A DNA stretch of 21,046 bases from the NCBI RefSeq assembly GCF_006345805.1, contig NW_021823865.1, positions 1 to 21,046 on the forward strand. The letters are read 5' to 3'. Shown in pieces: positions 4,376 through 18,363 of this stretch. The stretch is from Octopus sinensis (lineage: Eukaryota). How positions within the stretch are numbered: the first letter of the stretch is position 1; each line of letters begins with the position of its first letter. The position numbers and the translations under genes were made by a program. The notes below the pieces were generated by a model. The model was not told the origin of the DNA. It worked only from the letters and a program-made list of their open reading frames with translations, and ran no database searches.

Positions 4376-5103
4376 ACAAGTTCTCTGCGAACGTTGTAAC
4401 TGGCTCCAGATTTCTGGTCAAACACGGCTCAAGGGTCTCATAAAATATTTAATAGCGGAAAACATACTGCAGTGAACCAGCTATTGGACCGCTGTAACTC
4501 TGTAACCAAATACACTGTACACACAAACGATATAAATAAAGAAACATAAAAATAATAAATACAGCCAAACATTGAAAACCCAAAACACAGCAAAAACATG
4601 AAGATATTTCTGAATGAAAACACAACCAGAAGTCAGCCATATTGTTTTTGTGTTTTTCCATTCCAATTTTCGAGTTGAATGTCTCTATGTTTATTTCCTC
4701 TCCTTAGAGACTTGGAAATGTGAACTGTCAGAAAAATTAAATAAATAACATGATAATTTAAAATAGTGGAACAAGGAAAATACAGATAACTGCTGTTGTT
4801 GCTTCTTCCATTGATGTTGTTGTTGTTGTTGTTGTCGTTAACAGCAGCTTGATCTAGAAGCCATGTGATCAAAAATAATATAACCTTTTATATTCTAGAC
4901 TTCTTAACTGACCTGCCTTTCCGTTCTTTGGGAAATGTGTCTGCTATTTCTAGCATGGAATTTACCAAGTTTGTTTAATGTTTTCATTCACCTATTTTCT
5001 TTTCTTATTGATTACTTTCAGTCATTGGATTGCGACCATGCTGGAATTCCGTCATGAACGGTTTGGTGGAACGAATCTAGGTCAGGCTTTATTGTTTTCA
5101 ACT

Positions 5104-5471
5104 AATTGTCTGGCAACGGGTAGTGTCAGTGCTATGTCGTCGGGAACTTCGGTTCCTGGTAGGGCCACCCAAGGCGGATTGGTCTGACACCGAGTGGTAT
5201 TAGGGCCACAACCCGGCAGACGGAGCTCTGGTGAAAATCCTCGGAGTGTCTGTTTCGGCAACCGGCGGCTCCTCGGTCGTTCTGTCCCTGCGTCTGCGGA
5301 CAATCTGCGGCAAACGTGATGTCTCTATATGCGGGATTGTTGGGGACCACTTGCGAAAATCATATCTCCACGAAACTTCTTCCACCGCCATGTTTCGAGA
5401 TGCCTCGAGGGTGGTGGAAGAAGCCGACTCAACCCGCCCAGGGTGAATGTCGCCACAAGTACAAGTAAGTA
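5104..5471 (+). mobile_element. Short non-autonomous RTE-derived retroelement (5'UTR-like segment plus 3' end), TSD TTCAACT
   Basis: GC-rich island flanked by ttcaact at 5097-5103 and 5472-5478, with a short-repeat tail acaagtacaagtaagta. The motif gctatgtcgtcggg...cctggtagggccacccaaggcgga.tggtc resembles, from memory, the conserved 5' region of RTE-clade LINEs (BovB, Expander/Rex3). Confidence 0.7.
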
Positions 5472-5825
5472 TTCAACTGTGGCATATTTTCTATCTGTCC
5501 ATTTTTGCCGAACCACTAGTTTACGGAGAAGTAATCAATAGACCGACAACTTTTCCAAACGAGGATAGAGAAGAAACAGGACACGCAGCATGCACTCAGC
5601 TACACACCTTCCCGTGTGTGCACACACACTCGTACTCCTCTCTCTCACACACGCGCACGCATACGCACACTCACACATACACATCTTATAACAATTTGAT
5701 TCGGCGCTGTACAACTTCAAGTTACGTAGACTGGTCAAGCGAACTTCACTCGTCAGCCTCCTACTCAGTGTTATGAGTGCCAGCTTTCTGTCACTTGTCC
5801 TCTCACTCATACACACAGACACAGA

Positions 5826-6331
5826 CATCATCATCATCATTGTTCGACCGTGGTCGAGACAATGGAATTTACCATGCTACGCCAGACTTCACGGTCTATC
5901 ATAGCATTACGGGGGTCCTGTTGCTGGATGCCTGTATCCCTGGAGATTACATCAGGGTAGGAGAGTGTGCGCCCTCTGGTATTGCGAGTAGATGGCTTCC
6001 AGAGGAGAAGAGTATAAATTACTTCTTTTTCAGCTCTATAACAATGTCCAGCAAACTGGACTCTCCTACCTTTCACAAGAGATGAAACAGGTGGTAGTTT
6101 CCCATATATTTGCATTTTGGTTGGATGGCGCTTCCACGAGAGATTTTGAGCTTTCATAAGGAGGCGAGTGTAGGTTCCATCCAACCGCCTCTCAAGCTTC
6201 TTTGATAACGTCCAGGTTTCTGAGCCATATAGTAGAACTGGTTCGACTGTGGCTTTGAAGATTTCAAGATTGAAGTCTCTACTTAGATTTGATGACCAGA
6301 TCTTATGCATGTCATTACAGGCTGACCAGGC
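5826..6331 (-). mobile_element. 5'-truncated RTE-clade non-LTR retrotransposon, C-terminal ORF region plus (TGA)n tail
   Basis: Open frame AWSACNDMHKIW...VEPVLLYGSETWTLSKKLERRLDGTYTRLL...FAGHCYR...LLLWKP...AMIDREVWR, typical of the RTE post-RT C-terminus. The stop codon runs directly into tgatgatgatg. The fragment sits within a CA microsatellite. Confidence 0.92.
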
Positions 6332-6590
6332 ACACACACACGTACGCATGCACACACATACGCACACACCTATATCTGTCTGGCTTCTTTCAGTTTCCCT
6401 CTACCAATTTCACTCAATAGTCGTCCGAGGTTATTGTATCAGTGAGGCTTCCGTGAGGTAACCCATCCCAAAATAAAGGTTATTCTTCAGATAAACACTA
6501 ACCCTTTTTTAGTAAGGTAGCACAAAAATTCAAATACTTAAGGGGCCCAAGCAGTATGAAAATACAAGAATTTCGAATTCCTTTTAAGCG

Positions 6591-14074: not shown

Positions 14075-14402
14075 CCTCTGTCGGCTGTGACGACGTAGCT
14101 TCCAGTTGATCTCATCAACGTGACAGCTTGTTCGTGAAATTAACGTGCAAGTGACTCGTGAAATCAACGTGCAACTGGCAGACACGTGTTCTCTTAACGT
14201 AGTTCTCGAGGAGGACCAGCGTGACACAGAATCTGACACGGTTGGTCCTTTGAAATACAGGTACTACTCATTTTTGCCAGCTGAGTGGACTGGAGCAGCG
14301 TGAAATAAAGTGTCTTCCTTAAGGATACAACACGTAGTTAGAATTGAACTTACAACCTTACAAACGTGAGCTGAATACTCTAACCACTAAGCCACACGCC
14401 TT
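14075..14402 (-). mobile_element. Older head-B SINE sharing its 3' module with 13651-14037
   Basis: Minus-strand head ggcgtgtggcttagtggttagagtattcagctcac...agttcaattc. 14075-14265 aligns with 13660-13838 and has a local 24-bp duplication at 14133-14180. Confidence 0.8.
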
Positions 14403-17488: not shown

Positions 17489-18363
17489 GCTATGTTCCAG
17501 TAGTTGATTTTTTTCACTAATTTTTGGTGATATTTGTGGAAGCTATGTTCCAGTTTCTAATCTCACTTAATTGTGAGAATCGTTGTTTTTGGGGAGTATC
17601 TCGCCTCCCAAAATAGTTAAGGTTTGTCACTAATATTTTTGTGATATTTGTGGAAGCTATGTTCCAGTTGTTGCGATCCGGTTTCTAATCTCACTTAATT
17701 GTGAGAATCGTTGTTTTAGGGGAGTATCTCGCCTCCCAAAATAGTTGAGTTTTTTCACTAATATTTTTGGGATATTTGTGGAAGCTATGTTCCAGTTGTT
17801 GCGTTCCGGTTTCTAATCTCACTTGATTGTGAGAATCGTTGTTTTGGGGAGTATCTCGCCTCCCAAAATAGTTGAGTTTTTTCACTAATATTTTTGGGAT
17901 ATTTGTAGAAGCTATGTTCCAGTTGTTGCGTTCCGGTTTCTAATCTCACTTGATTGTGAGAATCGTTGTTTTGGGGGGCATATCTCAACTCCCAAAATAG
18001 TTGAGTTTTTTCACTAATATTTTTGGGATATTTGTGGAAAGTATGTTCCAGTTGTTGCGTTCCGGTTTCTAATCTCACTTAATTGTGAGAATCGTTGCTT
18101 TGGGGGGCATATCTCGCCTCCCAAAATAGTTGGGTTTTTTCACTAATATTTTTGGGATATTTGTAGAAGCTATGTTCCAGTTGTTGCGTTCCGGTTTCTA
18201 ATCTCACTTAATTGTGAGAATCGTTGTTTTGGGAGAGTATATCGCCTCCCAAAATAGTCGATTTTTTTCACTAATATTTTTGTGATATTTGTGGAAGCTA
18301 TATTCCAGTTGTTGCATTCCGGTTTCTAATCTCACTTAATTGTGAGAATCGTTGCTTTGGGGG
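17487..18363. repeat. Tandem array of a ~128-bp unit (about 6.5 units plus a truncated first unit)
   Basis: The unit start gaagctatgttccag (or a close variant) recurs at 17539, 17653, 17781, 17908, 18037, 18166 and 18294 (spacings 114, 128, 127, 129, 129, 128). Confidence 0.97.

What the first reader, a model, noticed from the sequence alone, without database searches (positions are those of the whole stretch)
5104..5221. Compact multi-helix RNA fold at the 5' end of an RTE-derived mini-element
Seen: nested pairings gtctg(5108-12)/cagac(5217-21), cgggt(5117-21)/acccg(5211-15) and gtgtcag(5123-29)/ctgacac(5184-90), a cUUCGg-capped hairpin (5139-5160), a small ggg-cca-ccc hairpin (5162-70) and gtggt(5194-98)/gccac(5205-09). 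Known: the GCTATG...AGGGnnnCCCAAG motif resembles, from memory, the 5' region of BovB and Expander RTEs, and some RTE 5' ends carry HDV-like or twister ribozymes. This fold does not match hammerhead, HDV or twister by eye. Inference: it is a deeply conserved cis-acting RNA (RT recruitment, translation signal or uncharacterised ribozyme) that non-autonomous copies must retain.
Basis: partly seen in the sequence, partly recalled or inferred. Interest (0 to 1): 0.72.

Follow-up and report, generated by a model that had tools for sequence, protein, structure and literature searches.

The report
Headless HDV-like ribozyme of RTE element
This stretch is the large branched middle part of a folded RNA that starts a common jumping gene; in intact copies it sits inside a fold shaped like the self-cutting RNA of hepatitis delta virus, which likely cuts the element's RNA free, but this copy has lost the front part and would not cut.

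Summary
The fold is real but is not a stand-alone RNA. The window holds a 5'-truncated copy (5110-5471) of an abundant, internally deleted RTE-type retroelement; 29 of 29 other copies extend further upstream. Intact copies begin with an HDV-like double pseudoknot: P1, P2, P3/L3, P1.1 and a catalytic-type C (window 5217). The outermost helix is a junction artefact that uses flanking bases. Across 38 hand-picked homologs, 29 of 44 pairs show compensatory changes, and a model built without this genome finds the window (47 bits). Copy 5' ends coincide with the predicted cut site. Rfam has no model for it. HDV-like ribozymes at RTE 5' ends are known (Ruminski 2011, not readable here); what may be new is the conserved ~90-100-nt P4 domain and a C at +1 in most families. 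Cleavage is untested. This family has weak spots (U·U in P3, interrupted P2), and 14 loci carry tandem ribozyme units. The scan noted the same reading before on other DNA (e1-9393647, e1-10346757).

The parts
5097..5103 (+). Left copy of a 7-bp target-site duplication (ttcaact)
   Evidence: Read from the sequence; identical to 5472-5478
5104..5109 (+).
   Evidence: 29 of 29 other copies align from 5110, not 5104
5110..5471 (+). 5'-truncated, internally deleted (bipartite) non-autonomous RTE-type element: partner nt 42-318 joined to its last ~82 nt and a (CAAGTA)-type tail
   Evidence: 93% over 277 nt and 95% over 82 nt to the ends of the 3.4-kb APE+RT element L222
5110..5112 (+). Last base of the P1 3' strand (5110) and the P1.1 3' strand (5111-12, UG); their partners are missing in this copy
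   Evidence: Invariant in 29 of 29 copies; pair A22-U38 in 21 of 23 parsed family-A copies
5117..5215 (+). Expanded P4 domain: P4a 5117-21/5211-15; P4b 5123-30/5183-90 (the window's T5130 breaks one pair) plus 5132/5181; P4c 5137-41/5173-77; three-way junction with hairpins P4d 5142-57 (UUCG) and P4e 5162-70; lineage-specific hairpin P4f 5194-5209
   Evidence: model R1 matches 5124-5189 at 47.4 bits
5216..5221 (+). J4/2 strand with the predicted catalytic C (5217) and conserved A (5220)
   Evidence: C and A in 29 of 29 family-A copies; C-N-R-A in every parsed family, where the parser required this motif
5222..5231 (+). P2 3' strand (partner missing in this copy; the window has A at 5224 where 24 of 29 copies have G)
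5472..5478 (+). Right copy of the target-site duplication
4996..5537 (.). Older repeat that the element interrupts (left part to 5103, right part from 5479)
   Evidence: In 7 of 124 own-genome loci the two flanks match one repeat 61-62 nt apart

Best explanation
The stretch is the branched P4 domain and predicted catalytic strand of an HDV-like RNA fold that begins an RTE-type retrotransposon family and likely self-cleaves, left here in a 5'-truncated copy that would not cut. Shown: (1) the copy is truncated, and intact copies and a full-length APE-RT partner carry 41 more nucleotides; (2) intact copies and distant homologs keep P1, P2, P3, L3, P1.1 and J4/2 with compensatory changes; (3) copy 5' ends coincide with the first base of P1. 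Inferred: (4) a host read-through transcript folds the double pseudoknot, and the C at 5217 acts as general acid to cut just before +1, giving a defined 5'-OH end; (5) the folded end then protects the uncapped RNA and may help translation or use as template; (6) reverse transcription of this RNA sets the sharp 5' boundary of new copies. The P4 domain most likely stabilises the core as a peripheral domain and may also be a protein-binding site (untested). My odds: about 0.9 for the structure, about 0.7 for measurable cleavage in intact family-A copies.
For: Truncation and partner. Covariation on 38 metagenome homologs: 87.8% of cells paired vs 78.5 +/- 0.5 shuffled; 29 of 44 pairs with two-sided change vs 20.2; slid controls 34-51%. 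P1.1 pair: G-C 31, A-U 6, other 1 of 38; A-U in 27 of 27 family-B and G-C in 26 of 26 cluster-M10 copies. Family-swap test on 14 families: P2 own -9.5 vs cross -4.6 kcal/mol, 0 of 20000 permutations as good; P1 1 of 20000. 5' boundary: majority base at +1 vs -1 is 18 vs 9 of 27 (B), 9 vs 5 of 9 (M15), 7 vs 3 of 7 (M4); 36 contigs of run X17 have loose ends exactly at +1 of L007. Model from non-own sequences: window 47.4 bits, next best 9.5; 15 of 15 own-genome sources hit, two being the same locus. Reverse search by the catalytic core alone gave 2 loci, both with the branched P4. Precedent: RTE ribozymes (cited); L1Tc ribozyme cleaves at C1 with a one-pair P1.1.
Against: Cleavage was not tested. 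In families A, B and C the first P3 pair is U·U in 0-of-31-paired cells, P2 is 4 bp + a 1x3 loop + 3 bp, and family-A P1 is 8 bp rather than 6-7. Most relatives have C or U at +1, whereas a review calls G1 invariant. Fourteen loci carry the whole unit 2-4 times head-to-tail with one junction, several inside one target-site duplication; if these moved as RNA, the internal copies were not cut. The Rfam HDV match is chance-level on its own (12.8 bits, E = 8). In family A the -1 base is T in 14 of 23 copies, so the boundary step there is small (+1 G in 16 of 23); in cluster M10 +1 is ragged (T 11, C 7, A 4, G 4 of 26). Alignment A1 was hand-picked (38 of 75), part of the structure was read from it, and the search pattern fixed the core motif, so counts lean towards the structure. 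P1 own-family rank was first in only 5 of 14 families.
Confidence: 0.72

Rival explanations
1. The HDV-like fold is real but cuts weakly or not at all in this lineage. It is kept as a 5' shield, translation element or template signal, and the 5' boundary is set by an internal promoter or by reverse transcription.
For: U·U in P3, interrupted P2, 8-bp P1; tandem units at 14 loci. In R2 templates the ribozyme fold itself raised insertion efficiency (PMC11331408, passages). L1Tc's first 77 nt are also a promoter.
Against: The catalytic-type C and A are kept in 29 of 29 family-A copies; L3 U...G and P1.1 are kept across families. Tandem arrays lie mostly on C23-C30 (11 of 14) with different internal deletions, which also fits spread by DNA recombination.
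Confidence: 0.18
2. One reading: a closed, stand-alone multi-helix cis-acting RNA of a new class, unrelated to HDV.
For: The inner core is conserved among RTEs and has no Rfam match.
Against: The closing helix is an artefact (42.6% paired). Homologs with intact 5' ends embed the core between P1.1 and J4/2.
Confidence: 0.06
3. The GGUAGGG...CCCAAG core is a twister or pistol variant (twister variants are known in the RTE Perere-3).
For: Twister variants occur at RTE 5' ends. The hairpin 5194-5209 resembles a pistol P1 (recalled).
Against: No twister, pistol or hammerhead match in Rfam. Hairpin 5194-5209 is absent from the other families. The 5' boundary lies about 70 nt upstream of the core, at P1.
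Confidence: 0.02
4. Chance folding of a GC-rich repeat.
For: z = -2.19 only.
Against: Compensatory changes across families.
Confidence: 0.02

Closest known systems
HDV-like ribozymes at the 5' ends of RTE and other non-LTR retrotransposons (Ruminski et al. 2011; not held, seen only as cited in PMC5786205 and PMC6765202)
   Same: Same element type, same position, same predicted role in releasing the element RNA.
   Different: I could not see which RTE families or P4 sizes that paper covers. Here P4 spans about 90-104 nt, is branched and conserved, and +1 is mostly C.
L1TcRz of Trypanosoma cruzi L1Tc/NARTc (PMC3185411, passages)
   Same: Sits at +1 of an APE-type LINE and its internally deleted derivative; cleaves at C1; one-pair P1.1.
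   Different: Whole ribozyme is 77 nt, so no large P4; different clade; experimentally shown active.
R2 ribozymes (PMC3774820, two parts of seven read) and drz-Agam-2-1 (PMC4908430, first part of four read)
   Same: Double pseudoknot, L3 G, catalytic C plus constrained A in J4/2; large peripheral domains tolerated.
   Different: Their large insert is usually in J1/2, and R2 often takes the P1 5' strand from 28S rRNA. Here J1/2 is short, the insert is in P4, and P1 is element-encoded.
Bipartite non-autonomous RTEs and RTE-derived SINE bodies (Kojima 2018, PMC5786205, parts 1-4 of 5 and supplement part 6 of 15)
   Same: 5' and 3' ends of an RTE joined by internal deletion; the same core motif appears in the BovB and RTE alignments.
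   Different: That paper gives sequence similarity only, with no structure for this region in the parts I read.
Rfam RF02682 HDV-F-prausnitzii
   Same: Aligns from +1 of L015 through P1, P3/L3 and the junction after P1.1.
   Different: 12.8 bits vs gathering 44, E = 8; the model cannot span the large P4.

Membership tests
HDV-like ribozyme (intact family copies) | P1 of 6-7 bp starting at the cleavage site | tested here: met
   7 bp in B, M4, M15, M16 and L240; 8 bp in the window's family A, which is atypical. 78.5% paired in the unadjusted alignment.
HDV-like ribozyme (intact family copies) | P2 pseudoknot | tested here: met
   8 of 8 pairs with two-sided change; swap test 0 of 20000. In A/B/C it is interrupted: 4 + 3 bp.
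HDV-like ribozyme (intact family copies) | 3-bp P3 closing a 7-8-nt L3 with U first and G sixth | tested here: inconclusive
   92% paired in homologs, C-G 18 / U-A 18 at one pair; L3 pattern kept. Families A/B/C have only 2 pairs plus U·U.
HDV-like ribozyme (intact family copies) | P1.1 nested pseudoknot (1-2 bp) | tested here: met
   G-C 31 / A-U 6 / other 1 of 38; two pairs in A/B/C, 92% paired.
HDV-like ribozyme (intact family copies) | Catalytic C and conserved A in J4/2 | tested here: met
   29 of 29 family-A copies; C in at least 90% and the preceding A in all of 38 aligned homologs.
HDV-like ribozyme (intact family copies) | G at +1 (called invariant in PMC8495972) | tested here: inconclusive
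   Met in family A (16 of 23); not met in B, M4, M15, M16 (C). L1TcRz cleaves at C1, so the feature is not absolute.
HDV-like ribozyme (intact family copies) | Site-specific self-cleavage dependent on the J4/2 C | not testable with these tools
   Needs an in vitro assay.
HDV-like ribozyme (window copy itself) | Presence of the P1 5' strand, P2 5' strand, P3 and L3 | tested here: not met
   Element nt 1-41 are absent.
Bipartite non-autonomous RTE | 5' and 3' ends of an autonomous APE-RT element joined by internal deletion, with tandem tail and TSD | tested here: met
Bipartite non-autonomous RTE | Partner falls in the RTE clade by RT phylogeny | not tested
   No reference RTE proteins were held. 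Assignment rests on the one-ORF APE-RT layout, 3.4-kb length, tail and 5' motif shared with Repbase RTEs (compared by eye).
Twister / pistol / hammerhead | Match to the Rfam model | tested here: not met
   Family-specific pseudoknots were not tested one by one.

The most novel reading that the evidence does not exclude
The ~90-nt branched P4 insert is a separate, deeply conserved RNA module of RTE retrotransposons, BovB included: a docking site for the element's reverse transcriptase or the ribosome, or a tertiary clamp that switches cleavage on. Together with C at +1, it defines a widespread HDV-like ribozyme subfamily that Rfam and G1-based searches miss.
Probability: 0.25. Interest if true: 0.7.

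Novelty: new variant of a known kind. Interest (0 to 1): 0.42.

Why it matters
It gives a testable structural model for the conserved 5' end of a broad group of RTE retrotransposons, so far described mainly by sequence similarity. It would explain their sharp 5' boundaries. It shows why Rfam misses this group. RTE 5' UTRs are being optimised empirically for gene writing (PMC13708176, passages), so a covariation-backed structure with a predicted catalytic C would guide that work. The window copy itself is a dead fragment of no special importance.

Tried and rejected
Rfam: none of 133 matches with E <= 1 in the window overlaps 5104-5221; 7 weak matches on 8 homolog loci, none a ribozyme. Expression: no RNA holder listed on record; the 4 runs laid were contigs, which cannot show ends or levels, so this is no evidence either way. 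Viral contigs: 1 pattern match (L191), not matched by model R1, treated as chance. A free per-sequence parser was too noisy and was replaced by family anchors; the offset for family D was set one base too far, so D is not used for the boundary count; family F was mis-parsed but left in the 14. Alternative register, in which the base before +1 pairs with position 38: rejected because 22:38 covaries and G is not clearly enriched at -1 (4 of 16 in B, though 3 of 6 in M4). GCUAUG as the catalytic strand: rejected, since no P2 follows it. The ribozyme papers Ruminski 2011 and Webb 2009 are not held. Searches for a prior description of this P4 domain listed none, and a 2026 preprint has no occurrence of RTE or BovB in its main text; its supplements are closed, and the unread papers and their supplements may already show this domain. 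The own genome could not be scanned with the RNA model, so the number of related families there is a lower bound.

Full report
Observation. The pairings are in the sequence and in the MFE fold, -46.2 kcal/mol, z = -2.19, 3 of 200 shuffles as stable. None of 133 Rfam matches with E <= 1 in the window overlaps the stretch.

The element. A search of the own genome with 5104-5300 gave 1218 candidates, of which 40 were scored; 30 loci were fetched, one being the window. All 29 other copies align from 5110, not 5104, and all extend upstream with shared sequence, up to 41 nt. The window copy is flanked by a 7-bp duplication (5097-5103, 5472-5478) and interrupts an older repeat (7 of 124 loci carry both flanks 61-62 nt apart). 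One copy continues into a 3.4-kb element, L222, with endonuclease-like and RVT_1 domains in a frame broken by stops and a frameshift. The window copy matches its nt 42-318 (93%) and its last 82 nt (95%). It is therefore a 5'-truncated, internally deleted derivative, the bipartite type described by Kojima 2018 (PMC5786205; parts 1-4 of 5 read). That paper's supplement (search passages and part 6 of 15) shows the same core motif near the 5' ends of BovB variants, RTE-7_PM, RTE-3_Crp, RTE-14_Lch and RTE-60_LMi, compared by eye. RTE clade membership was not tested by phylogeny. The host is likely an octopus (my recall of the host repeat and earlier scan notes; not tested).

Homologs. Of these 79 had full flanks and 75 were unique, in 20 clusters. 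In 9 of 76 loci with enough downstream DNA, an endonuclease N-terminal motif follows (two are the same sequence), as expected for LINE 5' ends. I aligned 38 of the 75, chosen by hand: those with large indels or foreign 5' ends, and some redundant ones, were left out.

Structure. Intact copies fold as an HDV-like nested double pseudoknot (HDV numbering recalled; features as described). On the 38 homologs, 87.8% of cells pair (shuffled 78.5 +/- 0.5), 29 of 44 pairs change on both sides (shuffled 20.2), and slid controls give 34-51%. P2 has 8 of 8 such pairs; P3 alternates C-G 18 and U-A 18; P1.1 alternates G-C 31 and A-U 6. RNAalifold alone recovered only the P4 part. Because copies are related, I also swapped strands between families (99 of 177 sequences parsed, 14 of 27 families): own-family P2 duplexes average -9.5 vs -4.6 kcal/mol (0 of 20000 permutations), P1 -9.0 vs -6.6 (1 of 20000), though own-family rank was first in only 7 and 5 of 14. 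Families A/B/C and M15/M16/M18 are not independent of each other. The search pattern fixed the core motif, so its invariance is by construction; a reverse search with the catalytic core alone gave 2 loci, both with the branched P4, one without the GCUAUG motif. A model built without own-genome sequence matches window 5124-5189 at 47.4 bits, rough E 3.5e-10, next best 9.5, and 15 of 15 own-genome sources.

On 31 sequences (10 each of A, B, C, picked from 29, 30 and 30, plus the window) five helices hold at 84-98%, three with two-sided changes; the outer one holds at 42.6%. In the HDV model its 5' strand is flank plus the ends of P1 and P1.1, and its 3' strand is the catalytic strand. The rest is P4: P4a, P4b, P4c, a three-way junction with P4d and P4e, and hairpin P4f, found only in A/B/C. 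The predicted catalytic C is 5217, kept with A5220 in 29 of 29 copies.

5' boundary. The majority base rises at the first base of P1: 18 vs 9 of 27 in B, 9 vs 5 of 9 in M15, 7 vs 3 of 7 in M4; in A +1 is G in 16 of 23 but -1 is T in 14 of 23; M10 is ragged. In run X17, 36 contigs have loose ends at +1 of L007 and 17 two bases in. HDV-like ribozymes cut at the first base of P1, so this fits a cut RNA as template; an internal promoter could give the same.

Against activity. In A/B/C the first P3 pair is U·U, P2 is 4 bp + loop + 3 bp, and A's P1 has 8 bp. Most relatives have a pyrimidine at +1, while a review calls G1 invariant (PMC8495972, passages); however L1TcRz cleaves at C1 with a one-pair P1.1 and even without P2 in one construct (PMC3185411, passages), and the early search rules were called too restrictive (PMC4035085, passages). 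Fourteen loci carry tandem units with one junction; this would mean incomplete cutting if they moved as RNA, but their crowding on C23-C30 also fits DNA-level spread, a lead taken from note e1-10333045 and not tested.

What is known. HDV-like ribozymes at RTE 5' ends are established (PMC6765202, passages; PMC5786205), as are twister variants in some RTEs (PMC7761336 and PMC8501958, passages). Ruminski 2011 and Webb 2009 were not readable, so I cannot exclude that they show this group. Paper searches (listings only unless named above) turned up no description of this P4 domain. Rfam gives only a chance-level HDV match on an intact copy and none on 8 homologs. Two earlier AI notes of this scan reach the same reading on other DNA; I had reached it before looking, and they are not independent support.

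Verdict. It works like an HDV-type 5'-processing ribozyme. Intact copies meet the structural tests, with P3 and +1 inconclusive and cleavage untestable here; the window copy is not a member because it lacks the front half. New variant of a known kind; interest 0.42.

Noticed in passing
L223-L239 (14 loci; 11 on contigs C23-C30): Element nt 1-187, the whole ribozyme unit plus about 27 nt, repeated head-to-tail 2-4 times with one junction, in copies with different flanks and different internal deletions; several arrays lie inside one target-site duplication. Either uncut RNAs were mobilised, or the junction spread by DNA recombination or template jumping.
   Followed up: partly
L110, L113, L114, L126, L176: A metagenome cluster of 5 has an extra hairpin of about 14 nt inserted at the L3/P3 boundary of the HDV-like core.
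   Followed up: no
window 5199-5204 (loop of hairpin 5194-5209): The loop is complementary to the end of the P1 5' strand and start of J1/2 in family B, a possible alternative pairing that competes with P1; seen by eye, and family C changes one loop base.
   Followed up: no
family C, L192-L221: Both partners of one P4a pair are missing relative to families A and B, a matched deletion seen by eye.
   Followed up: partly
L241: A diverged relative keeps the HDV-like core and three-way junction but not the GCUAUG motif.
   Followed up: partly
window 5837-6400, minus strand: 3' fragment of another LINE-like element: 187-aa open frame ending in a short tandem tail; no Pfam match.
   Followed up: partly
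window 14329-14401, minus strand: tRNA-like sequence (Rfam 33.6 bits, gathering 29) not called by ARAGORN; likely the head of a SINE.
   Followed up: partly
window 17547-18363: Tandem repeat, 128-bp unit, 6.4 copies, 93% matches.
   Followed up: no
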